Assembly (NCBI GenBank): GCA_964580185.1
Contig: CAZOJQ010000008.1
Location: 2,426-66,425 of the forward strand
Source of the DNA: an uncultured Thermotogaceae bacterium
Lineage (GTDB): Bacteria > Thermotogota > Thermotogae > MWEM01
Reading direction: 5' to 3'
Length of the DNA: 64,000 nt
Shown here: piece by piece, positions 4,717 to 62,156 of the stretch
How the letters are laid out: every line of letters starts with the position of its first letter
Position numbering within the stretch: position 1 is the stretch's first letter
Program-made: the position numbers and the translations under genes
Notes under the pieces: model-generated
What the model saw: the letters and a program-made list of their open reading frames with translations, nothing else
Told to the model about the DNA's origin: nothing
Databases searched by the model: none

Positions 4717-5427
4717 ATGACCCATCTTCTTGAGCGGATCCATAGACAATTTGACGATTTGAGGAGCGCACAATCATTGAACACCAAAACGGTCCGCTCC
4801 TTCAGCGCGGAGTTGTTCCGGACCCTTAATGTTCCAAGCCTCGAAACGGTCTTTCCTTTTTGCGAGGTATTGCTGAAAGAAAAGAGATGGCCTTACAACA
4901 CGATTGCCTTTGATTGGGCCCACCGGATGAGGAACCAATATCAAAAGGAAACTTTTTTCCTTTTTGAGCGGTGGTTGAGGGAGTATGTCTCCGATTGGGG
5001 GGACTGCGACGACTTCTGCACACACGCTTTGGGGGAATTGGTGATGCAACAAACCGATTCGTTCCCGAAAATATTGGAGTGGACCCATTCCCCTCTGTTC
5101 CCGGTTCGAAGGGCATCGGCCGTCACGCTCATCCTGCCCATCCGCAGAAACCGATATCATCACACCAACCCTTTGCGGATCGCTGAACGATTGATGAATG
5201 ATGCGCACTATCTGGTGGTAAAAGGATATGGATGGATGCTCAAAGTCTTGGCGGAACAGGATCTTGACGCTGTGATCGGCTTTATCCAAACCCATAAAAC
5301 CCATATGCCCCGTCTTTCGTTGCGGTATGCCATCGAAAAGATGGACCCTTCAATCCGATCAATGCTTATGCAAAAGGAACGGAGGAAAAGGCCCTCTACC
5401 TGCGAGAATGATGAGGGTTTCGAATGA
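4717..5427 (+). CDS. DNA alkylation repair enzyme, AlkC/AlkD HEAT-like-repeat glycosylase family
   Basis: Three recalled family motifs are present: DWGDCD (DNWDLVD-like), a W..RR block (FPVRRASAV) and a GYGWMLK block (AVGWVLRE-like). Start placed at the ATG after a GGGAGG RBS at 4703-4708; the ORF-track start at 4672 lacks an RBS. Confidence 0.55.
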   Translation: MTHLLERIHRQFDDLRSAQSLNTKTVRSFSAELFRTLNVPSLETVFPFCEVLLKEKRWPYNTIAFDWAHRMRNQYQKETFFLFERWLREYVSDWGDCDDFCTHALGELVMQQTDSFPKILEWTHSPLFPVRRASAVTLILPIRRNRYHHTNPLRIAERLMNDAHYLVVKGYGWMLKVLAEQDLDAVIGFIQTHKTHMPRLSLRYAIEKMDPSIRSMLMQKERRKRPSTCENDEGFE

Positions 5428-13137: not shown

Positions 13138-13896
13138 ATGGAAGACTATCGGAACCATAGAGCTAACTTAAAATCGGTAGGATGGGAACAGGTACGCATA
13201 TTGGAGACCGATCAGAAAAAAGGAGTTCCGCATCCGGATCTTGAGAAAGGAGTGCCTGAAGGCGCCAAAACCATAAAGTTACCTGCGTTCCAGGAAGTGG
13301 CTCAAAGGGAGACCCGGTTTTATCCCTTGTTCCATGATCGGAAAAGCCATAGGAAATTCTTGGAGGAAGGGCTGTTTTTGGAAGAAGTCTCTTTCCTTTT
13401 GTGGGCGACACAAGGGCTAAAAAGCATCACAAAAGACGGGGCTACCTCTTTTCGTACCGTGCCTTCTGGCGGTTCCCGGCATTCTTTTGAGACCTATGTT
13501 TTTGCCCAGAAGGTAGACGGGCTGAAGCCTGGATTGTATCGGTATCTCCCTGTAACGCATGAATTGGTCTTTCTCTTTGATCGCGAAGACTTTTCTAATC
13601 AGCTTACCCAGGCGTGTTTGGGCCAGCAATTTGTTGGTCAGGCCCCTGTGAGCTTTATTTGGACAACCATTCCCTATCGAACGGAATGGAGGTATGCGCA
13701 TGTAGCTCACAAGATCATCGGTATCGATGCGGGGCATTTGTGCCAAAACCTGTACTTGGCTGTTGAGGCGATTGGGGCTGGCACGTGTGGAATCGGTGCC
13801 TACAACCAGGAGTTGATCGACACGTTATTGGATGTTGACGGAGAAGATGAGTTTGTCATTTATCTCGCTCCGATCGGGAAAGTTCATTCTGGCTAA
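13138..13896 (+). CDS. SagB-type dehydrogenase domain protein (nitroreductase superfamily)
   Basis: Motif PSGGSRHSFETYV resembles the SagB RPS(P)SAG(A)LYP block. ~250 aa, glycine-rich C-terminal FMN-binding region. Confidence 0.55.
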   Translation: MEDYRNHRANLKSVGWEQVRILETDQKKGVPHPDLEKGVPEGAKTIKLPAFQEVAQRETRFYPLFHDRKSHRKFLEEGLFLEEVSFLLWATQGLKSITKDGATSFRTVPSGGSRHSFETYVFAQKVDGLKPGLYRYLPVTHELVFLFDREDFSNQLTQACLGQQFVGQAPVSFIWTTIPYRTEWRYAHVAHKIIGIDAGHLCQNLYLAVEAIGAGTCGIGAYNQELIDTLLDVDGEDEFVIYLAPIGKVHSG

Positions 13897-14870: not shown

Positions 14871-15293
14871 TTACAGAGGCCCTGTTGTAAAACTCCTCAC
14901 TGGGCTGTGCGTCGATGCGATGTGACCGGTCGGATACTCCAAACAAGCCATAACGAGCCAGTAGTAAGTCGTATTGGGCTGTAAATCAACTGTGAGCGTA
15001 TAGGTCTCATCTGTAATCATTATCGGCTGGCCATTCAGAACATACAAAACGGGGTCCGTTTGTTCGCTGATGTACAGTTGGTAAAACTCTGTTGGAGTTC
15101 CTCCAACCCATGTGAAGGTGGGACGGAGCCCAATATTGGTTGATCCGTTCGCAGGAGCGACAAGTTCAGGTGCGGGAGGTACAGGGCGCCGATCTCTTCG
15201 TTGACAACCAAGGTTGAGCGCGCACACCAAGACGAGGATAGCAATTAATCCTAAAAGAACTATGGTTCGTGTACCGTGCCTTTTCTTCATCAT
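14871..15293 (-). CDS. Secreted/lipoprotein with fibronectin type III-like domain
   Basis: N-terminal signal peptide ending ALNLGC (lipobox-like) and an FN3 sequence pattern (PTFTW...Y.L.V.A....G....S..R.FTT). Confidence 0.5.
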   Translation of the reverse strand: MMKKRHGTRTIVLLGLIAILVLVCALNLGCQRRDRRPVPPAPELVAPANGSTNIGLRPTFTWVGGTPTEFYQLYISEQTDPVLYVLNGQPIMITDETYTLTVDLQPNTTYYWLVMACLEYPTGHIASTHSPVRSFTTGPL

Positions 15294-33768: not shown

Positions 33769-34218
33769 CTAAAAAAGGACACGAACCAGTTCCTCAGGAT
33801 CAAGACGATAGGACGAGGGATTTCCCTGGAAAAAATGGTGCTCATGGATCAAATGAAGCGCCAACTCTGAGTAGGTTACACATTCCTGGGTGGATATTCT
33901 GCAGACGCGCACGTTAACCTTAGCGTAGACACCGTCTTGGAAGGGACATACCAGTTTGCCACGGGCTTCATCCACCCAAACTTCCCATTCATCTTCCACC
34001 CCAATCGGCTCCCCGAGTCCTTTCCGCCCATGAATCATGAAGTGTTCCATCCGTTGATATAGGTCATCGAACGATTTTCCCGATTTGGCTAATCGTTCTT
34101 CATCTTCGGTAATGATATCGATCAAAGGGCGTTGATCCTCTCCGAGAAATCCCTGTCCAGAAATTACTCCTGGTTGCATATTTCTCTGAGCCATCTGCAA
34201 TTCTGGGGTCATTTTCAT
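33769..34218 (-). CDS. Hypothetical protein (150 aa), terminal gene of the Nqr/Rnf-like operon
   Basis: GGGGGG RBS followed by ATG begins 8 nt after the nqrF-like stop. No recognised domain. Notable His-rich stretch HLIHEHHFF. Confidence 0.45.
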   Translation of the reverse strand: MKMTPELQMAQRNMQPGVISGQGFLGEDQRPLIDIITEDEERLAKSGKSFDDLYQRMEHFMIHGRKGLGEPIGVEDEWEVWVDEARGKLVCPFQDGVYAKVNVRVCRISTQECVTYSELALHLIHEHHFFQGNPSSYRLDPEELVRVLF

Positions 34219-34229
34219 CGTATCCCCCC

Positions 34230-35354
34230 CTAGGCAAATTTGTCGTAATAGATCCGGTCTTCCGGGATCCCATTGTTCTTCATAACCTGCACGCATGCGT
34301 TGATCATGCCGGGGCTTCCGCACAAGTATCCTTCTTTGGCATGATCGGAATCTACCCGATCGCGCAGGTATTCGTCCAGGACATCGGTAATTAACCCTGT
34401 TTCGCCCTTCCATTCATCTTCGGGCAATGGGTCGGATAAAGCGGGAATGAAATGGAAAAGGGGCCACCGTTCTTCCAAATCTCCGAAAAGATCTAGATAG
34501 AAAAGGTCTCTTTTAGAGCGAGCTCCAAAGAAATACCAAATATGCCGCGATTGATCCCCTTTTTCAAACAAATCCATTAGGATCGACTTGATGGGCGCCA
34601 TCCCGGATCCACCGGCTACGCAGATCATATCTGCATCGGTGTCACGGACGTAAAAATCTCCAAAAGGCCCGATCAGTTCGATTGATTGTCCTTCTTTCAG
34701 GAGTTCGTGAACATACGTCGTTGCAATCCCATTCGGTACTCGTCGGATGAGCAATTCGACGGTTTTTGGTTGGGAGGGATTTGATGACATGGAATACGCT
34801 CTTTGTGTTGATTCGGGGATTTTGCGGTAGGGAGGAATCACAAGTTGGACATATTGCCCAGCTTGGTATTCAATGGAAGCAGGCTTTTCTAGAGAGATCC
34901 GTACCTCTTTGATATCATGAGTCACATCGTTCAATGAATCGATCACTCCCAGATACGGCCGGGCTATGAACAGTTCTTCGGGGATTTGGATTTGGATGTT
35001 CGCTTTCAGCTTGATCTGACAAGACAATCGAATCCCATCTTGCTGCTCCTGTGGGGTTAGTAGGGGGTATTCCGTTGGAAGGATCGGCCCAATATCGGAA
35101 AGGACCGTAATTTTGCAGGCCCCACAGCTCCCCCGCCCTCCACAGGCAGATGGAATGAACACCTCCTGCTCGGAAAGGGCCGAAAGGAGAGATGCGCCTC
35201 CTTTTGTTTGGAGAATCTTCTTTCCCCGGTTGATATCGATTTTCACTTCTCCGTAGTTGTTGACGATCGCGTCAATGATGGCGATGGTTAAAGCCAAAAT
35301 CGCTCCGATTCCTCCAACGACGAGTGGGGCAATCCAGATTGACATTCCGATCAT
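34230..35354 (-). CDS. nqrF: Na+-translocating NADH:quinone reductase subunit F-like (TM helix + [2Fe-2S] ferredoxin + FAD/NAD(P) FNR domain)
   Basis: N-terminal TM helix, ferredoxin motif CGGRGSCGACK...C, and the FAD-binding motif RAYSMSS (NqrF-typical RAYSMAN). Confidence 0.7.
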   Translation of the reverse strand: MIGMSIWIAPLVVGGIGAILALTIAIIDAIVNNYGEVKIDINRGKKILQTKGGASLLSALSEQEVFIPSACGGRGSCGACKITVLSDIGPILPTEYPLLTPQEQQDGIRLSCQIKLKANIQIQIPEELFIARPYLGVIDSLNDVTHDIKEVRISLEKPASIEYQAGQYVQLVIPPYRKIPESTQRAYSMSSNPSQPKTVELLIRRVPNGIATTYVHELLKEGQSIELIGPFGDFYVRDTDADMICVAGGSGMAPIKSILMDLFEKGDQSRHIWYFFGARSKRDLFYLDLFGDLEERWPLFHFIPALSDPLPEDEWKGETGLITDVLDEYLRDRVDSDHAKEGYLCGSPGMINACVQVMKNNGIPEDRIYYDKFA

Positions 35355-35359
35355 CCTTC

Positions 35360-35953
35360 CTATTGAACGCTCAACATACCCGCAAAGCCAATGAACGCCA
35401 TCGCCATGATCCCAATGGTAATGAGCGTGATTCCTGGACCCTGCAAAGCAGGAGGTATGGGATTTTTGTCAATTCTTTTCCGGATTGCTGCAAGCAACAG
35501 GATGGCAAGCCACCAGCCAATTCCTGAACCTGCGCCGAATAAAACCGATTGAAGAAAATTGTAATGACGAAGCTGCATGAACAGGGCAACACCCAAAATG
35601 GCGCAATTGACGGTGATCAAAGGGAGGAAGATCCCTAGACTGATATACAAAGAAGGAGAGAGCCGGTCGATCACCATTTCAAGAACTTGTACAACGGCGG
35701 CTATGACAATGATGAAAACGATGTAGCGTAGATACTCCAGCTCAAGAGGGATGAGAACCGAATGAAGGACAACCCAGTTCACCGCAGTTGTGAGGGTCAT
35801 GACCAAAGTTACTGCCATCCCCAATCCATTGGAGGATTTGAAATCTTTAGAAACTGAAATGAATGAACACATACCCAAGAAGTTGGTCAGGAGAATATTG
35901 GAAGTGAATATTGCTGCAAAGAAAAGGATCAATGCATGAATGGGAGGGGTCAT
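35360..35953 (-). CDS. nqrE: NqrE/RnfA family membrane subunit
   Basis: 197-aa six-TM protein of the NqrDE/RnfAE family. Confidence 0.7.
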   Translation of the reverse strand: MTPPIHALILFFAAIFTSNILLTNFLGMCSFISVSKDFKSSNGLGMAVTLVMTLTTAVNWVVLHSVLIPLELEYLRYIVFIIVIAAVVQVLEMVIDRLSPSLYISLGIFLPLITVNCAILGVALFMQLRHYNFLQSVLFGAGSGIGWWLAILLLAAIRKRIDKNPIPPALQGPGITLITIGIMAMAFIGFAGMLSVQ

Positions 35954-36579
35954 GGCTTTGCCTCCTGATTCTTTTTTGTCGCAGTTTTTGCCAAATAATT
36001 CCCGCGCGCGATCCAGATAAAAATCCCCAACATGAAAAACCCACTAGGGGCCATGATCATTATGGTCCAAGGGACAAACGATTCGGATAGCAAGCGGATG
36101 CCAAATATGGAACCAAATCCCAAAATTTCTCTGCATATGGCAATCGTCATGAGGACAATCATAAACCCAAACCCAGTTGTCAACCCATCCCAAAAGGAGA
36201 GAAATGGTTTGTTGGACTGCGCAAAGGCTTCTGCCCGACCCATGATGATGCAGTTGGTAATAATAAGACCCACATACGGTCCCAGGGCTTTGCTAATGTT
36301 TGGGAGAAAAGCTCGAAGGGCGATATCTACCAAGATTACAAAGAAGGAAATGACCAAGGTTTGGATGATCATCCGCACTTTTCTCGGGATCCAGTTTTTC
36401 ATTAAGGAAAGGAAGAAGTTTGAAAAGGCAGTGACAAAGGTGACACTTGTCGCAAGAATCAGGGTGTTCATTGCATCATTGGTGACTGCTAAAGTCGAGC
36501 AGATACCCAATATTTGCACGAATACCGGATTGTTTCCCCATACATTATCTTTGAGGATTTGCGCCGATTTGGATGCCAT
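35950..36579 (-). CDS. nqrD: NqrD/RnfE family membrane subunit
   Basis: 209-aa polytopic protein that is a paralogous partner of the preceding subunit. 4-nt overlap. Confidence 0.7.
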   Translation of the reverse strand: MASKSAQILKDNVWGNNPVFVQILGICSTLAVTNDAMNTLILATSVTFVTAFSNFFLSLMKNWIPRKVRMIIQTLVISFFVILVDIALRAFLPNISKALGPYVGLIITNCIIMGRAEAFAQSNKPFLSFWDGLTTGFGFMIVLMTIAICREILGFGSIFGIRLLSESFVPWTIMIMAPSGFFMLGIFIWIARGNYLAKTATKKNQEAKP

Positions 36580-36580
36580 T

Positions 36581-37198
36581 TTAAATCCCCCCTTCGTGAA
36601 CCAAAGCTTGAAGGATATGGAGGGATTGGTTCAGGATCTTTTCCACAGATTCGGATGTTAGAGTCGCGCCTGTGACAGCATCAACAGCGGCATTATCAGG
36701 ATCGGGATCGCCCAACCTTCCTGCGGAACGAAGCATGGTTATTCGACCTTCCGGGATGGCTTCATTCCGGAATTGGTCTTTAAACCAAAGATCATCGATT
36801 CGGCCACCCAATCCAGGAGTTTCATTTTGTTCGATGAAATCAATTCCTACGATCCGCGAAGCATCCTCGTTAACAGCCACGATACCGGTGATCGTTCCCC
36901 AGAGTCCATTTCCCGTGAATCGAATTGCATACACGGTTTCTCCTTCTCGAACGGTTTGGTATAAAACCCCTTGACTGGTGTCGTGCTCAGTGATAGTTTC
37001 GTCATAGAGATCATACACTTGATCGATCCGATCATAGGGAATATCCATGGCGAATAGGACTGCTCTGCGAAAGAAGAGTTCGTTATTTCGAGCAATCGGT
37101 TCTTTTGTGCTTTCATTCGCTAAGGCAAGGAGAGCGACTAAGACAAAGGTTACCCCGAAGGTGAAAAGGACGGAATAGGTTTTGCTGTCTTTTTTCAT
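36581..37198 (-). CDS. nqrC: NqrC/RnfG family FMN-binding subunit
   Basis: Single N-terminal TM helix and the covalent-FMN motif TGATLTS near the C-terminus. Start moved to MKKDSKT (206 aa). Confidence 0.7.
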   Translation of the reverse strand: MKKDSKTYSVLFTFGVTFVLVALLALANESTKEPIARNNELFFRRAVLFAMDIPYDRIDQVYDLYDETITEHDTSQGVLYQTVREGETVYAIRFTGNGLWGTITGIVAVNEDASRIVGIDFIEQNETPGLGGRIDDLWFKDQFRNEAIPEGRITMLRSAGRLGDPDPDNAAVDAVTGATLTSESVEKILNQSLHILQALVHEGGI

Positions 37199-38097
37199 GG
37201 GTTCACCTTCTTGGGTTTCGGGATTTTCAGATCGATCAAAGAGGCGAACGTATTCCCGATCAATACGCCAAAACTCGTTCCTTCGGGGAAGAGGGAAAAG
37301 GTTCGGACCAGTACTGAAGAAACCCCGATGATCATTCCATACAACCATTGCGCTTTGGGTTTCTTGGGAGCTGAAACTGGATCGGTTGCCATAAATACTA
37401 TCACAAAAAGAATGCTTCCTGAAATAAAGGAATGAAATGCTGGCAAAGCCCTGGCTACCCCAAAGATATCAAGGATCAGTATGAGTCCAAACGAACTAGC
37501 CAGCGTTGAAACGATAATCCGCCAGCTCGCTGTCTTTGTATACAGAAGGTAGATCGCTGCCAACAGGATTAAAAGAATCGGTCCTTCTCCCATAGCCCCA
37601 GCGCGGTTTCCGATAAGGGTATCCCAAACGGAAAAGGTTTTTCCCTCCCGAAGAATGGAGAGGGGTGTGGCTGAAGTCATTACATTTGATCCAAATCCGC
37701 CTGGTTCAAGAAATCGAGCGGTCATTTCTCCTGGGAAAGCAATATATATAAATAACCGTCCGACAATGGCTGGATTAAAGACATTCTTGCCAAATCCTCC
37801 ATAGGCTTCTTTGCCCATGATTACCCCGAACATGATCCCAACCAATGCGATCCACCACGGAGTTAACGGCGGAAGAGACAGAGTGAAGAGCATACAGGTA
37901 ACAAGGACTGCTTCGCTGACTTTCTTTTTTTGTCGTCGTTCCATCAGGAATTCAGATAAAATCCCGCCCGCGAACACGACGAGAGACAGCAAAAGCAAAT
38001 GCCACCCATACGCCCAAAACGCGAAGGCATAGATGGGGATTAATGCATAGATCACACGCCGCATCATGACTTGCTTGGTGAAAATGTTTATGGCCAA
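37195..38097 (-). CDS. nqrB: NqrB/RnfD family membrane subunit
   Basis: Polytopic membrane protein with the FMN-attachment-like motif SATPLS. At 300 aa it is shorter than canonical NqrB and closer to RnfD. Confidence 0.65.
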   Translation of the reverse strand: MAINIFTKQVMMRRVIYALIPIYAFAFWAYGWHLLLLSLVVFAGGILSEFLMERRQKKKVSEAVLVTCMLFTLSLPPLTPWWIALVGIMFGVIMGKEAYGGFGKNVFNPAIVGRLFIYIAFPGEMTARFLEPGGFGSNVMTSATPLSILREGKTFSVWDTLIGNRAGAMGEGPILLILLAAIYLLYTKTASWRIIVSTLASSFGLILILDIFGVARALPAFHSFISGSILFVIVFMATDPVSAPKKPKAQWLYGMIIGVSSVLVRTFSLFPEGTSFGVLIGNTFASLIDLKIPKPKKVNP

Positions 38098-38143: not shown

Positions 38144-39910
38144 TCATTCCACCCGAATTGAAATAGCAAAGGTTTGAATCGGAGGGTCCGTTTCCCATGG
38201 GCGGCTGAAGGAAAACACAATAACGGTTTCGCCTGGTTGCAATGCTTGAAAGGTCCATTCCACTTGATACCCAGGGCCGATCAGTCTTATAGCGGGTTCA
38301 TACGGGATTTCTTGCCGATCAATGACCAAAACCACTTCCGGATTTTGAATCTCTACAGACCAGACATACCCTGTTGCGGCGTTTTCTGGCAGGGAGATAC
38401 CGGAGTACTGCCCGATTGATAGGAGATTGGTCTGCCATATAAGGTCTTTCCGTTCTGGAGTGGACGATTTCGTGATCAGCGGAGTAACCAGAATGCTCGG
38501 AGCGTAGGAACGGATGATCTGTTCGAACCTGCCATCTCGTTTTATACTGTCCAAGGCTTTTTGCAGTTGATAGACAAAGTGCGGATGCGTTCCTTTGGAT
38601 GCTGTTATGTAGAAATCTTGAGTCCGAACCGGCAATAGGGGAACGACATCATTGATGGAATATCCCGCGGACTCGAACAGAGAGGGCGCGGTTAGGTCGG
38701 TGAAGATCGCGAGCTCCACATCTCCATGAATCAGTTGATGTACAGTGTCTCGAGGATCCAAAGCGCTCTTCAGGTTAGCAAACCCTAGGTCTTTCAACAA
38801 TTGCTCAGTCCACCAATCTTGAGTGGTTCCAATGGCTGAGTATGCTTTGGCTGCCATCAGATCAGGGAGGATTGACTCAAAGTCTCTTCGACCATAAAGA
38901 TAAGCGGTATTGCTTCCTACGGGTCCAATCCAACTAAACAAAGGGTCCCGCAAAGGAGTCCGATCCATACTGAATAGCAGAATGTTGGGAAGATTCAACG
39001 CCAAATCGTATCCGATGGCCCACGGAACAACCAAAATCTCTTGATCCATTCCTACCTGTTCCATAAGCGCTTCCATGATTTCAACGACAAATCCCGAAGG
39101 ACGATGATTCGCTCCCATGAAAGTCACAGGAGGGTATTCTTCGGTGATTAGCGTGTATATTCCGGGTACATAATGATCTGGGAGCCACCTTTTGTATATC
39201 TCTGCAAATGCTCCGCTCTCCTTGAGTTCGTCCAAAACTCTTTGCCAATTAGCGATGGTGTCCGAAGGGACGCTTTTCGAAAAGCCCAAAAAGTTCATTT
39301 CCAAGTGAATGGGAATGACCGGAACCATAGTCAAAGAGGATTCATGAACCATGAAGCTTGGCGCGACAATTGAGTTAAAAGGAGCAAGTTCGATCTTGTT
39401 TTCGAGAAGATCGTCGAACATTTTTTGTTCATGATCGTAGACAATCAAATTCTCGAATCCCGAATCCAGTAAGATTTGATGAGAATAGTAGTTGCGGACG
39501 ACTCCGATGGAAGTTGCCAGTTTGGCCTCTTCCATGGAAGAAATGATCAACAGTTCCTTTGAAGAAGCATACAGATTGGTCATATTGATTGCCAGAGGAC
39601 CGACCCATTGGAATTGGTCTTTTCTGGCTGGAGTATACACCAGAGTTGGCAATGAAACCATATCTCCATCCAACATACGGGCGATTGCTTGATCAACGGA
39701 GGAAGGATCCCAATGGATGGTATCTCCCAACCGATCTGCAATCAAATTGGCCACTTCAACGACTAACCCAGCGGCGCTTCCGTTTTCTTCGTATGTCAAC
39801 GGGTAATAGTCAGGGTGGTACAAGAAAGTGAGTTCTCCTCCAAACCCTTTACCCAATCCAATAATCCCCACAATCCATAGATACACAACCCATTTTTTCC
39901 ATCGAGCCAT
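38144..39910 (-). CDS. Exported protein with two tandem type-3 solute-binding (SBP_bac_3-like) domains and a C-terminal chagasin-family (I42) cysteine-peptidase-inhibitor-like domain
   Basis: N-terminal signal/anchor, then two repeats with the SBP3 pattern (YTPARKDQFQWVGPL and the second copy). The C-terminal ~100 aa carry the three chagasin motifs ENAATGYVW (NPTTGFAW), IGPGYQVEW (GxGG-like) and FSRPWE (RPW). Confidence 0.5.
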   Translation of the reverse strand: MARWKKWVVYLWIVGIIGLGKGFGGELTFLYHPDYYPLTYEENGSAAGLVVEVANLIADRLGDTIHWDPSSVDQAIARMLDGDMVSLPTLVYTPARKDQFQWVGPLAINMTNLYASSKELLIISSMEEAKLATSIGVVRNYYSHQILLDSGFENLIVYDHEQKMFDDLLENKIELAPFNSIVAPSFMVHESSLTMVPVIPIHLEMNFLGFSKSVPSDTIANWQRVLDELKESGAFAEIYKRWLPDHYVPGIYTLITEEYPPVTFMGANHRPSGFVVEIMEALMEQVGMDQEILVVPWAIGYDLALNLPNILLFSMDRTPLRDPLFSWIGPVGSNTAYLYGRRDFESILPDLMAAKAYSAIGTTQDWWTEQLLKDLGFANLKSALDPRDTVHQLIHGDVELAIFTDLTAPSLFESAGYSINDVVPLLPVRTQDFYITASKGTHPHFVYQLQKALDSIKRDGRFEQIIRSYAPSILVTPLITKSSTPERKDLIWQTNLLSIGQYSGISLPENAATGYVWSVEIQNPEVVLVIDRQEIPYEPAIRLIGPGYQVEWTFQALQPGETVIVFSFSRPWETDPPIQTFAISIRVE

Positions 39911-39958
39911 GATTGCACTCCTCCTGTCAATGGTTTTCAGTACTCATCGTCCAATCCA

Positions 39959-57161: not shown

Positions 57162-60100
57162 TTAGATCGCGGTCTTCTTCTGTCCGAAAACAGACTCTTC
57201 ATATTCAATAGCAGTATACCAATCCATACCAGTACCAGCAGGCACAATCTGTCCGATAATCACGTTTTCCTTAAGCCCTTTCAGCTCGTCGATGCTTCCG
57301 CGAAGCGCGCTCTCCGTAAGCACTTGGGCAGTCTGCTGGAATGAAGCGGCGCTCAACCAACCAATTCGTTCCAAAGAGGCTTTTGTGATTCTCAATAGCT
57401 TCCGCCGATACTTCACCGGTTCTTTCGCAAGGATCTGAATGGTTTTGGTTTTGGGTTCAGGATTGAGTTCGGAGGCGTGTTCTTCAACAATCTCCACTTC
57501 TTTGACTCCCGCTCGAACCAGCTTTTGGAGCAAGGACTCAGTAACGGTTTCCCCATCTTTGGCGAGCTCCACAAGCTCTTTGTCTTCCCGAGTAAGCACA
57601 TGACGGGCCAATTCTTTGCCCAGAACCCGTTTCCGGTTTTCGTTGACTTTGGCGTTGTTTTTCAAAAGGGTTTCGTTGGCTTTTCGCACTTCTTGAATCA
57701 TAACCAAATCGCCCACAAGGAAATCGGTGTCACCGGGATCAATCACTTCAACTTTGCTCAGCATCTGTTTGATAATGAGTTCGATGTGTTTGTTGTGGAT
57801 TTCTACGCCTTGTTCCGAGTATACCCGTTTGATTTCTCGAAGGAGATAGGTGAAGGTCGCATCCACATCGAGTTCCTGCATAAGCTCTCTCGGGCGCAAA
57901 GCGCCGGTGGAAAGCGCGGATCCTGGAAGGACTTTGTCTCCGACAAGGTTGCGTGTTTTCAGATTGGACGCAAGCTCATACTCCGAGATTCTTCCTTCAT
58001 AATCTTCCAGGTAGATCTTGGTTTTCCCGGTTTCATCCTGTTTGATGTCCTTCACAAATCCACGGACTTTGCTGAAAATGGCAGGGTTTTCTTTTAGTTT
58101 CTTTCTGGCTTCGAACAACTCTTCGGCTCTGGGCAATCCTTGGGTAATGTCTGCTGCAGAAGCGATTCCGCCTGTATGAAAGGTTCTCATCGTCAACTGC
58201 GTACCGGGTTCACCGATCGATTGGGCCGCGATAATCCCCACAGCTTCGCCCACAGACACAATCCGGTGATTCGAAAGATCCATTCCATAACACTTAGCGC
58301 ACACTCCATCTTCGGCTTCGCAATCAAAGACCGTCCGGATCTTTATGGTCGGTCTGACTTCCACTTCTGAGACCTCTTCTTCGGCAAGCAAACGAGCCGT
58401 CGCTGGATCGATCTTTTCCTCTTCCAACAACAAAACGCGTTTTCCGTCTTGGGACCGAATCTTCTGTTTGGAGTAGTTGCCCACCACCGGGAATTCCAAT
58501 ACACTCACTTCCGATATCCCATGATTGTTGCACTCCTGCATCATATGCCAGTTCACAGGTGTTCCTGCTTGAAACAAGAGCATACCGTTGGATGCGAAGA
58601 TATCCTCTTTCAACTCAATGTATGAATGATTGTCTTTTCTCATGTCTTGATACCGCAGAGAATACTCCCTCATGACATCGACTTTTTGAGAGAAGGTCGC
58701 CAGGAACCGAGCGTCATTGTCGTACAGCATGACATCCCGATCATACGATCTCGAAGGATCCTGATCATTCCGAAGCACCTCGCCGGTCCGCGGGTGGATC
58801 ACCGCTTCGCCCAGCACTCGACCGAAGATGTTCTTTTCCAGATTTTCGATCTCCATATCTTCATCGCGAAGAGCGGTCGCTTCGACTCCGTGGTGGGTAC
58901 CGCAATCTGCTTTCAAAACGACAATCCCTTGGGAGACATCGACCAGACGGCGCGTCAGATATCCGGCATTTGCCGTACGCAATGCGGTGTCTGCGGATCC
59001 TTTTCTCCCTCCGTGGGTGGACATGAAGAACTCCATAACGCTAAGGCCTTCCCGGAAGTTCGCGCGGATCGGAAGTTCGATAATATCACCCGCGGGTCCA
59101 ACCATAAGGCCGCGCATTCCGGCTAGCTGTTTGATCTGGTCGATATTTCCTCGCGCGCCCGAAGCCACCATCATATACAAGGGGTTGAACAGGTCCTTAC
59201 CCAGATAGTCATAGGTTTCCTTCTGAATCAATTCAGTCGTCTTATCCCAGATCTTGATGATCTCTCTTTTTCGTTCCAGAGTGGTCAAAAACCCTTTTCT
59301 GTAGTAGGCTTCAATCTCTTTGATCTTTTTCTCCGCTTGACGAATGAAGTCTTTTTTCTTGGGCGAGATCACCACATCCACGACCGAAATTGTCAGCCCG
59401 GCTTGAGTTGCATAATGGAACCCAAGGTCTTTGATATCGTCTAACAATTCTGCGGTGCGGTCGATGCCGTACTTTTTGAAGATCTCATAGATCAGTTCTT
59501 TGATCTGCTTTTTCCCGAAGGTCTTCTGATAATCTTGAAAATCGGTCGGGATGATCTCGTTCCAAATCGCGCGGCCTAGAGTGGTCTTGATTCGCCAAGG
59601 TGTTCCTCCGCGGCCCCCTTCGATATCCATAAGGACAGGGGTATGGAGGTTCAACGGTTTTTCGGACTGGTTGATCTTCGCAAACTCCAGCGCCAGCAGT
59701 CCTTCTTCCAAGGAGCTGAATCGATGGGGAATCTCTTCTTCGGGGATTTGATCAAAGTCTTTTCGGGCCAGTGTCAGATAGTAAATCCCAACGATGATTT
59801 CCTTGTCGGGTCTTGACAATGGTTGTCCATCCGCAGGAGAAATGATGTTGTACCGGGAGAGCATCAGCAGTTTGACTTCTGCTTGGGCTTTCGCGGACAA
59901 AGGTACATGCACCGCCATCTGGTCTCCGTCGAAGTCGGCGTTGAATGGCGGACATACCAACGGATGAAGACGGATGGCATTTCCTTCCACCAAACGGGGC
60001 ATGAAAGATTGGATCGAGATCCGATGGAGCGTAGGCGCTCGGTTCAGCATGATCGGATGCTCTTTGATGACGTCTTCCAACACTTCCCATGCTTGGGGCA

Positions 60101-62156
60101 TTTCCTTTTCAATGATGGCTTTTTTCAGTTTTCGTGCTGTCTTGGATGTGGTTTCGTCTCCTAAGAGTTTGGCCAACACAAAGGGTTTAAAGAGTTCCAG
60201 CGCCATCTTTTTGGGGATTCCGCATTCATGGATTCTGAGTTCAGGGCCGACCACAATAACAGCCCGTCCGGAATAGTCCACTCGTTTTCCCAACAGGTTC
60301 CTTCGAAACCGTCCTTTCTTCCCTTTCAGAAGGTCCGTTAAGGATTTCAGAGGCCGGCCACCGCGGTCTGTGATTGGCTTGGACATCCGGCCATTATAGA
60401 TGAGCGCGTCGACCGCCTGTTGCAGCATCCGCTTTTCATTGCGAACAATAACATCGGGCGCGTTCAGATTCATTAATTTGGATAATCGATTGTTTCGATT
60501 GATGACTCTCCGGTAGAGATCATTCAAATCGGTTGTCGCAAACCGACCTCCTTCGATCTGAATCATCGGTCGGAGCTCGGGAGGAATCACGGGTACAGAG
60601 TTCAAGATCATCCACGTCGGATCGTTCGCTGAGGTCAAAAGGTCCTTGACGATCTGCAAGCGTTTCCTCAGTTTGAGCACGCGCGCGTTGGATCGGGGAA
60701 TCAGCCGAAGTTCATCTTCGATTTCGACTCGGATTTTCTCTAAATCCAGCTTTTCCAAAAGGATCTTTACCGCTTCAGCGCCGGTCTGCGCTTCAATCTT
60801 GCCCGGATACACGGTATGGTAGGCCTCATACTCATTGTCGGTCAAAATGTCACCGACTTTTTTGTTGATTTCTTGGGATACCGCTTCATCAATCTCGGTA
60901 ATCACCAAGATGGGTCGGTCGTTTTCAATTTCCGCTTCGACATTGAACATGCCGGGGTAGTAGTTTTCAAGGGTTTTGTACTCTGTAAGGGATAGGATTT
61001 CTTCCTCATACACAAACCGGTCGGCGATATGAGCGTCCTTTTCGACCATCTCGCCTTCATTGACATAGAGGATGGAACCTTCAATGATCGGGTATTTCTT
61101 TTCTTCAATAATATTTTCGATCAGGATCTGCCCATTGGAAGCGGTAACAAGCCGCCCATCAGGTCCTGAAGCAACCGTTAATCCTTTTCCGAAAACCACC
61201 TGACCCGAGAATTTGGATCGAATGGGGTCGTAGGTGACCATCTCGGAGAGGGGATCTCCTTTTTTTACTTTTGACTCGTCTTTCACCAAAACTTTGGCTC
61301 CATACGGTATGCTGAAGGTAACCGGCTGATCACCGCTCGTAATGATCGGCTCAATGGAAATCGTTCCCAGTCCTTCATCCACATCCACCGTTCCGTCGAT
61401 TGGCGCGTAAAGGGCAGGATGGGTCTGTTCGCTTGCCAATTCTTGTCCTTCTTCCACTCGATCTCCCGCCCGAACGTTGAGCATGGTGTCTTTGTGGACT
61501 GTATGGCCTTTGCTCACCTTATCCGTGATATGGACCCAATTGATGAGTTTGCCTGTATGGGTTTCTTCTTCGGTGATCGATACTTCCCCACCGATTTCCG
61601 CTCGAACGGGCCCCATGGGGCTCTTTACGATAACTGCGGGTTCGGCTTCAAAATCCCAAAACTCATTGTAGATGGAAAACTCCGTTTCATACAGGGTATC
61701 GCCGCTATCGAAGGGGGTGTTCTTTTTGTTGACCACCATAAACATTTTTTCGATGATCCGCAAAGATCCAAAATAGATGATGTTTTCCAAATCCTTGCTG
61801 GCCATGCTGAGTAGATTGGCAAGAATGCTTGGGGTGCTTTTCAAGTACCAAAGATGAACAACCGGAGCGGCAAGATCGATATGACCCATATTGAACCTTC
61901 GAGAAGACTTTGGCTCGATCCGAACACCGCATCGTTCACATACGGTCCCTTCATATTTCTTTCCTTTATACTTTCCGCACGAACATTCATAGTCTTTGGT
62001 AGGCCCAAAGATCTTTTCGCAAAACAACCCGTCTCGTTCGGGCTTAAAGGTTCGATAGTTGATGGTTTCGGGTTTTTTTACCTCTCCGTTGGTCCAACCC
62101 ATGATCGTCTCAGGAGAAGCCATCGTTATTTTGACATGGTTAATCTTTCTCATCAC
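57162..62156 (-). CDS. rpoC: DNA-directed RNA polymerase subunit beta-prime (1664 aa, with large lineage-specific insertion)
   Basis: N-terminal zinc finger CSCGKY...CERCGV, the catalytic NADFDGDQM motif, and the trigger loop/bridge helix. Confidence 0.95.

What the first reader, a model, noticed from the sequence alone, without database searches (positions are those of the whole stretch)
38144..39910. Fusion of two solute-binding (SBP_bac_3) domains to a chagasin-like cysteine-protease inhibitor domain, 46 bp upstream of the Nqr/Rnf-like operon
The C-terminal ~100 aa carry all three hallmark chagasin/ICP (MEROPS I42) motifs: ENAATGYVW (NPTTGFAW), a GPG(Y) loop and FSRPWE (RPW). Upstream are two tandem periplasmic amino-acid-binding-type domains and a signal/anchor sequence. 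I do not recognise this SBP-SBP-I42 architecture. It suggests a ligand-sensing or tethered exported inhibitor of papain-like (C1) peptidases. It is co-directional with nqrB and separated by only 46 bp, so it may be the first gene of that operon.
Basis: seen in the sequence. Interest (0 to 1): 0.65.

Follow-up and report, generated by a model that had tools for sequence, protein, structure and literature searches.

The report
Binding protein fused to protease inhibitor
A secreted bacterial protein made of two amino-acid-binding modules carries a genuine chagasin-type cysteine-protease inhibitor domain at its tail; this uncharacterised combination is confined to one small bacterial family, and its position next to the Nqr respiratory genes is a local coincidence.

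Summary
Window 38144-39910 (-) encodes a 588-aa exported protein: signal peptide, two SBP_bac_3 domains, conserved linker, and a C-terminal chagasin/ICP (MEROPS I42) domain. The I42 call passes every computational test run. Pfam gives 67.9 bits against a cutoff of 27.2. The top sequence hits in the PDB are ICPs. The AlphaFold model's 12 best Foldseek hits are all solved ICP/chagasin structures. The three protease-contacting loops are significantly more conserved than the rest of the domain (p=0.00065).

The fusion is one clade, found only in Kosmotogaceae/Mesotoga (Thermotogota; 11 GTDB species loci). It sits on an ancient, widespread 485-aa "orphan" double-SBP family with no conserved ABC-transporter partner. 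The I42 module was lost twice: once by loop deletion in a nested clade, once by a 1-nt frameshift.

The nqr adjacency occurs only in the window and one 84%-identical relative, so it is not a conserved operon.

Most likely function: a periplasmic or secreted tight-binding inhibitor of papain-like cysteine peptidases carried on a ligand-binding scaffold. Target and ligand are unknown. I42 domains in multidomain exported proteins are common in prokaryotes, so this is a new variant of a known kind, of moderate interest.

The parts
38144..39910 (-). Complete CDS (588 aa + stop) of the SBP-SBP-I42 fusion protein
   Evidence: ORF list; Pfam; a 100% identical protein P0001 and 30+ full-length homologues
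39918..39925 (-). Ribosome-binding site AGGAGGAG, 7 nt upstream of the ATG
   Evidence: Read directly from the sequence
39836..39910 (-). Sec-type signal peptide (about aa 1-25: MARWKK + hydrophobic core + GFG|GE)
   Evidence: Sequence. Homologues show n-region, h-region and AxA sites such as GLA|Q and LAA|Q. AF2 models it as a lone helix with low pLDDT at aa 20-24. No dedicated signal-peptide predictor was available.
39176..39835 (-). SBP_bac_3 domain 1 (aa 26-245). It keeps the carboxylate-binding Arg96 (T-x-x-R), but the canonical G-S/T-T and Asp positions are replaced (RNYY; Asn179).
   Evidence: Pfam; AF2 alpha/beta fold; alignment to AncQR/AncCDT-1; invariant T93/R96
38501..39163 (-). 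SBP_bac_3 domain 2 (aa 250-470). It retains Arg321, G-T-T (361-363) and Asp405 at the positions of the canonical amino-acid-contacting residues, and is the most conserved part of the protein.
   Evidence: Pfam; alignment to AncQR and GlnPQ SBD2; invariant columns across 61 sequences; 31% invariant columns
38417..38500 (-). Conserved linker (aa 471-498; P471 invariant). Its first part is the C-terminal tail of the 485-aa core family.
   Evidence: Alignments A1 and A2. pLDDT is about 90 in the full-length model but below 50 when the domain is modelled alone, suggesting it packs on SBP2.
38147..38416 (-). Chagasin/ICP (MEROPS I42) domain, aa 499-588; eight-stranded Ig-like beta-sandwich
   Evidence: PF09394 67.9 bits; PDB sequence hits PaICP 2wgn, EhICP2, PbICP-C, chagasin; Foldseek top 12 hits all ICPs, TM up to 0.81
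38360..38386 (-). Loop L2 motif ENAATGYVW (family consensus EN[GA]STGY[IV]W), equivalent to chagasin NPTTG(F)
   Evidence: N510, T513, G514, Y515, W517 invariant in 16 homologues; aligned to NPTTGFRW of PaICP; motif definition from PMC2607524
38261..38281 (-). Loop L4 IGPGYQV (family consensus VGAPY), a degenerate form of hydrophobic-hydrophobic-GXGG
   Evidence: Only G545 is invariant. It aligns to LVGSGG of PaICP, MVGFPS of EhICP2 and LLGGPD of PbICP-C. It is the lowest-pLDDT part of the domain.
38189..38206 (-). Loop L6 motif SRPWET (family consensus RRPWES), equivalent to chagasin RPW
   Evidence: R570, P571, W572, E573 invariant; aligned to RRPWE of PaICP and SRPWE of EhICP2

Best explanation
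The gene encodes an exported (periplasm or 'toga' space, or released) three-module protein.

The N-terminal 470 residues belong to an ancient, widespread family of tandem class-II (SBP_bac_3) solute-binding proteins. This family is not linked to any ABC transporter. Its second domain keeps the canonical amino-acid-contacting Arg / Gly-Thr-Thr / Asp residues.

In the common ancestor of a Kosmotogaceae/Mesotoga clade, this protein acquired a C-terminal chagasin-family (I42) domain. That domain retains the Ig-like sandwich and the L2, L4 and L6 loops. [quoted passage not shown]

The most likely function of the tail is therefore reversible tight-binding inhibition of such peptidases outside the cytoplasm. 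The double-SBP body would serve as a soluble carrier or ligand-binding scaffold.

Shown here: domain identities, fold, motif conservation, clade restriction, lack of a conserved genomic partner. Inferred: actual inhibition, extracytoplasmic location, amino-acid-type ligand. The target is probably foreign (peptidases from other community members or grazers) or an unidentified endogenous enzyme.

The position upstream of nqrBCDEF is a lineage-specific gene-order accident, although the genes may be co-transcribed in this organism.
For: Domain and fold evidence:
- Pfam I42 hit at 67.9 bits vs cutoff 27.2, over the full profile length.
- phmmer and profile hits to solved ICPs only: PaICP 3.3e-9, PbICP-C 2.5e-8, EhICP2 5.4e-8, chagasin.
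- AF2 C-terminal model pLDDT 81. Foldseek top 12 hits are all I42 structures (E 1.5e-9 to 3e-5, TM 0.6-0.8), then a drop to generic Ig folds.

Loop conservation:
- Loop columns have entropy 0.59 vs 1.21 for the rest of the domain, permutation p=0.00065. N510, T513, G514, Y515, W517, G545, R570, P571, W572 and E573 are invariant over 16 homologues of 41-84% identity.
- These are the residues defined as protease-contacting in PMC2607524 and required for inhibition in bacterial Cpi1.

Export:
- Signal peptides in all homologues.

SBP part:
- Pfam.
- Full-length AF2 pLDDT 89, pTM 0.85.
- Foldseek hits to the GlnPQ SBD1-2 tandem, BvgS/EvgS periplasmic domains and many amino-acid SBPs, TM about 0.8 per domain.
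- R321, G-T-T and D405 align to the conserved Arg, G-S-T and Asp of AncQR and GlnPQ SBD2.

Evolution:
- Single origin of the fusion, with the loop-less group nested inside it.
- Fusion restricted to Kosmotogaceae/Mesotoga.

Precedent:
- I42 domains in other exported or surface-anchored multidomain proteins, with SLH, Big_2, Kazal and others.
Against: - No candidate target: there is no clan-CA cysteine peptidase among the 57 ORFs of the window or in the flanks of relatives. Whole genomes could not be scanned.
- L2 lacks the Pro of NP[ST][ST]G (N-A-A-T-G here, N-G-S-T-G in most homologues).
- L4 keeps only the first Gly of GXGG.
- The I42 module was lost twice, by loop deletion in P0023/27/30/32 and by frameshift in Mesotoga sp. 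UBA6090. It is therefore dispensable, and its beta-sandwich can persist without loops.
- The SBP ligand and any docking partner are unknown.
Confidence: 0.6

Rival explanations
1. The I42-like domain no longer acts as a protease inhibitor. It would be an Ig-like structural, spacer or adhesion module, or would bind a non-protease partner, on a solute-binding protein whose real job is ligand capture for a transporter or sensor encoded elsewhere.
For: A nested clade keeps the beta-sandwich after deleting L4 and losing the L2 and L6 motifs. The module is frameshifted off in one Mesotoga lineage. L4 is degenerate and L2 lacks Pro. No target peptidase was found. Many prokaryotic I42 domains sit among Big_2/SLH surface modules.
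Against: The three loops are the most conserved part of the domain (p=0.00065). RPWE and N..TGY.W are invariant over sequences down to 41% identity. That is hard to explain for a mere spacer. The L4 variants seen here resemble those in the aligned chains of EhICP2 and PbICP-C; PbICP-C was crystallised in complex with falcipain-2, and from memory both are active inhibitors.
Confidence: 0.2
2. Ligand-gated or product-feedback inhibitor. Closure of the SBP domains on an amino acid or peptide (the products of proteolysis) would change the exposure of the I42 loops. Conversely, protease binding might alter SBP signalling. Either way, extracellular proteolysis would be coupled to nutrient sensing.
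For: The covalent fusion has a conserved, apparently ordered linker: pLDDT about 90 in the full-length model but below 50 in isolation, with overall pTM 0.85. SBP2 keeps amino-acid-contacting residues. The tandem SBP fold is used as a sensor module in BvgS/EvgS. Sister variants of the core carry a Cache-like sensor domain instead of I42.
Against: There is no direct evidence of coupling. Geometry could not be inspected. The SBP core functions without any C-terminal domain in most phyla. The I42 module is separable and dispensable. Plain tethering explains the data more simply.
Confidence: 0.1
3. The protein is the first gene, or an accessory subunit, of the Nqr-type Na+-pumping NADH:quinone oxidoreductase operon, for example filling the slot of the missing NqrA.
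For: It is co-directional with nqrB across a 46-nt gap, with no terminator-like or promoter-like site in the spacer. The operon nqrBCDEF lacks nqrA. The arrangement is kept in the 84% relative.
Against: In about 10 other lineages the gene has entirely different neighbours and no nqr, ybeY or pgpH gene within the flanks. There is no similarity to NqrA/RnfC. The protein has a signal peptide, whereas NqrA is cytoplasmic (established knowledge). The upstream spacer to ybeY is equally short, so the whole minus-strand gene string is simply compact.
Confidence: 0.03

Closest known systems
Bacterial ICP / chagasin-like inhibitors: Pseudomonas aeruginosa ICP (PDB 2WGN), P. syringae Cip1, P. putida Cpi1
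   Same: Same Pfam family (PF09394). PaICP is the best PDB sequence match, E 3.3e-9. Same Ig-like fold. Sec-exported. L2 and L6 motifs conserved, including the RPWE extension. In Pseudomonas these proteins act outside the cytoplasm on foreign papain-like proteases.
   Different: Those are single-domain proteins of about 110-140 aa, and Cpi1 is a lipoprotein. Here the domain is the C-terminal fifth of a 588-aa protein with two SBP domains and no lipobox. L2 has Ala or Gly instead of Pro. L4 is GPGY/GAPY instead of GXGG.
Plasmodium berghei PbICP (PDB 3PNR chain B) and Entamoeba EhICP2 (3M86/3M88)
   Same: EhICP2 is the best fold match (TM 0.71-0.81). PbICP is a precedent for a chagasin-like inhibitory domain at the C-terminus of a larger protein. 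Their L4 sequences (GFPS, GGPD) are as degenerate as the one here.
   Different: They are eukaryotic. The N-terminal part of PbICP is not an SBP. They regulate endogenous or host cathepsin-L-like enzymes.
Tandem SBP_bac_3 modules: GlnPQ SBD1-SBD2 (6H30); BvgS and EvgS periplasmic Venus-flytrap tandems (4Q0C, 9ILW)
   Same: Two consecutive class-II amino-acid-type binding domains. These are the top full-length Foldseek hits, E 2.6e-27 to 3e-20.
   Different: Those tandems are fused to an ABC permease or a histidine kinase. This one is a free exported protein. The relative domain arrangement differs (whole-chain TM only 0.3-0.45), sequence identity is about 15%, and none carries an inhibitor domain.
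The 485-aa 'orphan' double-SBP family (e.g. Desulfuromonas carbonis JCM30471_11210, P0048)
   Same: Direct homologues of residues 1-485 (34-37% identity, 55 invariant columns). They have a signal peptide and no adjacent ABC transporter genes.
   Different: They end right after the linker. Some variants carry a Cache-like C-terminal domain instead. Their function is also uncharacterised.
Other prokaryotic multidomain I42 proteins (tandem I42 repeats; I42 + SLH, Big_2, Kazal + beta-propeller, META, FGE-sulfatase)
   Same: An I42 domain is embedded in a larger exported or surface protein.
   Different: No SBP_bac_3 partner was seen in the sampled set. Many contain 2-8 I42 copies, whereas this protein has one.

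Membership tests
MEROPS I42 / Pfam PF09394 (chagasin, ICP) | Significant match to the family profile over its full length | tested here: met
   67.9 bits vs gathering cutoff 27.2, profile positions 4-91 of 91. Profile-to-PDB hits are ICPs only at E<0.02.
MEROPS I42 / Pfam PF09394 (chagasin, ICP) | Eight-stranded Ig-like beta-sandwich superposable on solved ICPs | tested here: met
   AF2 model pLDDT 81 with 8 strands. Foldseek top 12 hits are all I42 structures, TM up to 0.81. This is a predicted structure, not an experimental one.
MEROPS I42 / Pfam PF09394 (chagasin, ICP) | L2 motif NPTTG / NP[ST][ST]G | tested here: inconclusive
   N-A-A-T-G-Y here and N-[GAP]-S-T-G-Y in homologues. Asn, the second Thr, Gly and the aromatic residue are invariant, but Pro is replaced in 15 of 16. 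PbICP-C has NAGTGY, so this is within known family variation.
MEROPS I42 / Pfam PF09394 (chagasin, ICP) | [quoted passage not shown] | tested here: inconclusive
   L-I-G-P-G-Y here and L-V-G-A-P-Y in the consensus. Only the first Gly is invariant. This is similar to EhICP2 MVGFPS and PbICP LLGGPD.
MEROPS I42 / Pfam PF09394 (chagasin, ICP) | L6 motif RPW/F | tested here: met
   R570-P571-W572 (plus E573) invariant in all 16 loop-bearing homologues.
MEROPS I42 / Pfam PF09394 (chagasin, ICP) | Tight-binding inhibition of clan CA family C1 peptidases | not testable with these tools
   Requires enzyme kinetics.
SBP_bac_3 (class II / polar amino-acid-type periplasmic binding proteins) | Profile match and bilobal alpha/beta fold, twice | tested here: met
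   Pfam 96.9 bits, two stretches. AF2 pLDDT 89. Foldseek per-domain TM about 0.8 to ArgBP, GlnBP, LAO and others.
SBP_bac_3 (class II / polar amino-acid-type periplasmic binding proteins) | Conserved alpha-carboxylate Arg, G-[ST]-T and alpha-ammonium Asp of amino-acid binders | tested here: inconclusive
   SBP2: R321, G361-T-T and D405 align with the corresponding AncQR and GlnPQ SBD2 residues. SBP1: R96 is kept, but G-S-T is replaced by RNYY and Asp by Asn179. The roles of these residues are taken from established knowledge of HisJ/LAO/GlnBP and were not checked by superposition here.
SBP_bac_3 (class II / polar amino-acid-type periplasmic binding proteins) | Genomic association with cognate ABC permease and ATPase genes | tested here: not met
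   There is no conserved ABC partner in 5 fusion-clade contexts or 6 core-family contexts. The ABC operon upstream in L007 has its own Bmp-type SBP.
Nqr (Na+-NQR) operon / NqrA-like subunit | Homology to NqrA/RnfC, or conserved linkage to nqrB-F | tested here: not met
   No NqrA or RnfC profile hit. Linkage occurs only in one 84% relative, and is absent from L004-L012, L018-L023 and L059/60.

The most novel reading that the evidence does not exclude
The fusion is an allosteric device. Amino-acid or peptide binding by the tandem SBP would gate exposure of the chagasin loops; alternatively, protease capture would alter SBP docking to a sensor or transporter. Either way the cell would get product-feedback control or sensing of extracellular cysteine-protease activity. 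That would be the first ligand-regulated proteinaceous protease inhibitor built on a periplasmic binding protein.
Probability: 0.1. Interest if true: 0.75.

Novelty: new variant of a known kind. Interest (0 to 1): 0.4.

Why it matters
Chagasin-family inhibitors are well studied in parasites and, recently, in Pseudomonas as secreted or lipid-anchored shields against host papain-like proteases. This case shows the same inhibitory module, with its contact loops under clear constraint, grafted onto a tandem solute-binding protein. The hosts are free-living anaerobic Thermotogota from digesters and subsurface habitats, where no host is involved.

If the domain is active, it points to cysteine-protease warfare or protease regulation in anaerobic communities. 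It also offers a natural, probably thermostable scaffold that combines ligand binding and protease inhibition.

The work also draws attention to a widespread, strongly conserved 'orphan' double-SBP family of unknown function, which accepts different C-terminal modules (none, Cache-like, I42).

It does not bear on Nqr biology.

Tried and rejected
1. NqrA replacement or nqr-operon membership: rejected. There is no homology, the protein has a signal peptide, and the linkage is not conserved.
2. Search for a target peptidase: all 57 non-overlapping ORFs of the window were Pfam-scanned. Only an M48 metallopeptidase was found and no clan-CA enzyme. Flanks of relatives gave nothing consistent. Whole genomes could not be scanned.
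I substituted 6 single look-ups, which showed no recurring partner. One locus has a subtilisin gene 30 bp downstream (L056) and one has a sensor-domain gene overlapping upstream (L058).
5. Model coordinates were not exposed to the Python sandbox. Loop accessibility and the I42-SBP2 interface therefore could not be measured. Only pLDDT patterns were used.
6. Literature searches for this architecture, or for Mesotoga cysteine peptidases and inhibitors, found nothing relevant.
7. A cell-wall (NlpC/P60, muropeptide) connection was considered because of scattered YkuD, Amidase_2, LysM and transglutaminase neighbours. They do not recur, so the idea was dropped.
Full report
OBSERVATION

The region 38144-39910 holds one 588-aa ORF on the minus strand. 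It starts at an ATG, with AGGAGGAG 7 nt upstream. Pfam finds SBP_bac_3 twice (96.9 bits) and Inhibitor_I42 (PF09394) at aa 499-585, covering positions 4-91 of the 91-position profile. The I42 hit has E 9.4e-19 and 67.9 bits against a curated cutoff of 27.2. NCBIfam gives only weak, far sub-threshold similarity to cystine, Lys/Arg/Orn and Arg binding proteins.

The downstream gene is an NqrB/RnfD homologue whose TTG start lies 46 nt away.

IS THE C-TERMINAL DOMAIN REALLY A CHAGASIN/ICP DOMAIN?

Four independent lines say yes.

- Sequence against solved structures. The single sequence hits P. aeruginosa ICP 2WGN (6.5e-7), amoebiasin-2 (EhICP2), PbICP-C, amoebiasin-1 and chagasin. A 12-sequence profile improves these to 3.3e-9, 2.5e-8 and 5.4e-8 and adds Leishmania ICP. 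Nothing unrelated scores better than E 0.09.
- Fold. An AlphaFold2 model of aa 470-588 (pLDDT 81, pTM 0.70) has eight strands. Its 12 best Foldseek matches in the PDB are all I42 inhibitors: EhICP2, amebosin, chagasin free and in complex with cathepsin L or falcipain, PbICP-C and PaICP. These have E 1.5e-9 to 3e-5 and TM up to 0.81. After them come generic Ig-like domains at E above 2e-4.
- Motifs. The family is defined by L2 NPTTG, L4 hydrophobic-hydrophobic-GXGG and L6 RPW/F (PMC2607524; written NP[ST][ST]G, GxGG, RP[WF] in the Cpi1 preprint). In 16 homologues of 41-84% identity, N510, T513, G514, Y515, W517 (L2), G545 (L4) and R570, P571, W572, E573 (L6) are invariant. L2 lacks the Pro, and L4 keeps only the first Gly. 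PbICP-C (NAGTGY, LLGGPD) and EhICP2 (MVGFPS) deviate in the same way in the printed alignments.
- Selective constraint. The 22 loop columns have mean entropy 0.59 against 1.21 for the other 68 columns of the domain. Only 0.065% of random column sets of that size are as conserved. The sequences are related, so this is an indication rather than a strict probability.

THE REST OF THE PROTEIN

All homologues begin with a basic n-region, a hydrophobic core and mostly AxA-type cleavage sites, so the protein is exported. No signal-peptide predictor was available.

The full-length AF2 model is confident (pLDDT 89.2, pTM 0.85). It shows two bilobal alpha/beta domains (26-245, 250-470), a linker and the beta domain. 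Foldseek places the tandem nearest to GlnPQ SBD1-SBD2 (6H30), the BvgS and EvgS periplasmic domains and a histidine-kinase sensor domain. Each half superposes on many amino-acid SBPs at TM about 0.8.

In HMMER alignments to AncQR and GlnPQ SBD2, SBP2 has R321, G361-T-T and D405 at the positions of the conserved Arg, G-S-T and Asp. From established knowledge of HisJ/LAO/GlnBP, these residues hold the ligand's alpha-carboxylate and alpha-ammonium groups. SBP1 keeps R96 but has RNYY and Asn179 at the other two positions. SBP2 thus looks like a competent amino-acid-type site, while SBP1 is remodelled. SBP2 is also the most conserved part of the protein, with 31% invariant columns.

DISTRIBUTION AND EVOLUTION

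The word-indexed search found a 100% identical protein, an 84% relative, and about 30 full-length homologues (41-51% identity) carrying both Pfam domains. Where named, they come from Mesotoga, Kosmotogaceae or 'Thermotogota'. Cluster look-ups add cultured Mesotoga infera (WP_231936874.1), M. prima and Kosmotoga sp. All are annotated only as 'transporter substrate-binding domain-containing protein' or similar.

A scan of 185,579 GTDB species genomes with the linker+I42 profile found linker-inclusive matches only in 11 Kosmotogaceae, Mesotoga, Thermotogaceae and Petrotogales loci (10 spanning the linker and domain, 1 truncated at a contig end). Other phyla matched only the I42 domain itself.

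Below the fusion clade come hundreds of proteins of about 485 aa from Desulfuromonas, Smithella, Sulfurovaceae and many metagenomes. They match residues 1-485 at 34-37% identity, with 55 invariant columns. Some 680-aa variants carry a Cache-like C-terminal domain instead. An NJ tree of the SBP region makes all 575-595-aa proteins one clade, separate from the 485-aa proteins. This indicates a single acquisition of the I42 domain.

The I42 module has been lost twice.

- In P0023/27/30/32 (575-576 aa), nested in the clade as sister to the window protein, the beta-sandwich remains. The 19-residue L4 hairpin is deleted, L2 is ESGGMW or EADGVW, and RPW is RSA or QSA. Pfam no longer calls I42 there.
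- In Mesotoga sp. UBA6090, a 1-nt deletion at the codon of invariant Pro471 splits the gene. The result is a 476-aa SBP-SBP ORF and a signal-less 119-aa I42 ORF. The identical 119-aa I42 protein is called on at least six contigs, and the split was inspected in two independent assemblies (L059, L060). The gene is otherwise 89% identical, with a single gap, to the intact M. prima gene.

The SBP ligand-site residues stay invariant in both cases. The double-SBP body is therefore the autonomous, primary function and the I42 tail is an optional add-on. Where the loops are present, they are tightly conserved.

HOW UNUSUAL IS AN I42 FUSION?

An exhaustive HMMER search of 1.84 billion representatives found 5,842 I42 relatives. 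Many of the strongest hits are tandem arrays of 2-8 I42 domains, and some are long proteins. Ten long ones were Pfam-scanned. They combine I42 with SLH anchors, Big_2, Kazal plus beta-propeller, Cu_amine_oxidN1 plus PrcB_C, META or FGE-sulfatase domains.

Embedding I42 in exported or surface proteins is therefore common in prokaryotes. No SBP_bac_3 partner was seen outside Kosmotogaceae, and the closest non-fusion I42 proteins are stand-alone at 90-190 aa. No paper describes the architecture.

GENOMIC CONTEXT AND THE OPERON CLAIM

In the window the gene sits in a long minus-strand string: phoH, pgpH-like 7TM-HD, ybeY, this gene, then nqrB, C, D, E, F. Both flanking spacers are under 50 nt, and neither contains a terminator-like or promoter-like site. 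Co-transcription is therefore plausible.

The arrangement recurs only in the 84%-identical relative (L001, L002, L016). tblastn with the window's NqrB-F, YbeY, PgpH and PhoH finds none of them in the flanks of the fusion gene in L004-L012, L018-L023 or L059/60. In those loci the neighbours are radical-SAM/ferredoxin genes, a Bmp-type ABC operon, IMPDH, a Crp regulator/prismane gene and others.

The core family is equally context-free, with no recurring ABC permease or ATPase. The nqr adjacency is therefore a lineage-specific gene order and not a functional unit. The protein has no NqrA/RnfC similarity and is exported, so it does not fill the missing NqrA slot.

MECHANISM

The best-supported model is as follows. 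After Sec export, the tandem SBP body binds a small carboxylate or amino-acid-type ligand, at least in SBP2. The C-terminal chagasin domain presents L2, L4 and L6 at one end of the sandwich and blocks the active-site cleft of papain-like cysteine peptidases, as shown structurally for chagasin, PbICP-C and others.

Characterised bacterial relatives act on foreign proteases outside the cell: Cip1 of P. syringae and the lipoprotein Cpi1 of P. putida. The I42+SLH proteins found here suggest that envelope-tethered versions are widespread. The Kosmotogaceae version would then be a soluble carrier-linked variant.

- Shown: domain identities, fold, loop constraint, export signal, clade restriction.
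- Inferred: real inhibition, location, ligand class.
- Unknown: target enzyme, SBP ligand, any docking partner, and whether the two activities are coupled.

No clan-CA peptidase is encoded in the 64-kb window.

The linker is confident in the full-length model (pLDDT about 90) but disordered when the domain is modelled alone. The loops have the lowest pLDDT of the domain (68-82). This is compatible with a fixed domain orientation and exposed, mobile loops, but coordinates could not be inspected.

VERDICT

The functional suggestion is reasonable but unproven. The operon idea is not supported.

This is a lineage-restricted, uncharacterised new variant of a known kind: a chagasin-family inhibitor domain on a tandem-SBP carrier. 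It is already in databases under generic names. Interest is moderate (0.4). The ligand-gated inhibitor reading is not excluded (about 0.1) and would be considerably more interesting.

Noticed in passing
L060 3580-5360 (junction ~4994-4996); also L059: In Mesotoga sp. UBA6090 (GCA_002435945.1 and a JGI metagenome) a 1-nt deletion (GTGCCAAAC to GTG-CAAAC) at the invariant Pro471 codon splits the fusion gene. The result is a 476-aa SBP-SBP ORF and a 119-aa signal-less I42 ORF, which NCBI annotates separately as 'protease inhibitor I42 family protein'. The identical 119-aa protein is called on at least 6 contigs.
   Followed up: yes
L010 8001-9731 (P0023); also P0027, P0030, P0032: A nested Thermotogota clade (575-576 aa) keeps the C-terminal beta-sandwich but has deleted the 19-aa L4 hairpin and lost the L2 and RPW motifs. 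It is a natural 'loop-less' control for the inhibitor hypothesis.
   Followed up: yes
window 34230-38097 (-): An Nqr-type operon, nqrB (only 300 aa), C, D, E, F (NqrF = Fer2 + FAD_binding_6 + NAD_binding_1), with no nqrA/rnfC homologue among the Pfam-scanned ORFs of the window. The organisation is the same in the 84% relative (L001). NqrB and NqrC score below the NCBIfam equivalog cutoffs for both Nqr and Rnf.
   Followed up: partly
P0035, P0051, P0052, P0092 (e.g. L058 6001-8043): 680-aa variants of the double-SBP core carry a weak Cache-like (sCache_2/dCache_2) C-terminal domain in place of I42. In L058 the gene overlaps an upstream HK-GC-Chemotax_sensor-domain gene. The core therefore accepts different C-terminal modules.
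   Followed up: partly
L056 6001-8639: In one metagenomic contig a 478-aa core-family double-SBP gene is followed 30 bp downstream by a Peptidase_S8 (subtilisin) gene, with a trypsin-like peptidase gene nearby. This is a single case and does not recur.
   Followed up: no
P0297 (937 aa) and other hits: Prokaryotic proteins combining two I42 domains with a Kazal serine-protease-inhibitor domain and a beta-propeller, plus arrays of up to 8 I42 repeats (P0261, 1199 aa). Multi-inhibitor surface proteins seem common and understudied.
   Followed up: partly
window 38144-39910 vs L001 8001-9764: Between the window and its closest relative the fusion protein is 84% identical, whereas most neighbours are 91-96% identical (NqrB 91, NqrD 93, NqrE 96, NqrF 91, PgpH 93, PhoH 94). 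YbeY (80%) and NqrC (86%) are the exceptions. The fusion gene evolves faster than most of its surroundings.
   Followed up: no
L004 9783-12350: About 2.5 kb without any called gene lies immediately downstream of the Mesotoga prima fusion gene. It was not examined.
   Followed up: no
window 57162-62156 (-): The rpoC ORF is 1664 aa. It has weak sub-threshold Peptidase_M23 and RnfC_N (barrel-sandwich hybrid) similarity at aa 182-257, probably a lineage-specific insertion in the beta' subunit.
   Followed up: no
window 33769-34413 (-) and 13417-13746, 14871-15293 (-): ORFs with no Pfam match. The first overlaps the 3' end of nqrF as listed, so it probably starts later; L001 has a 149-aa no-Pfam gene at that position.
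   Followed up: no
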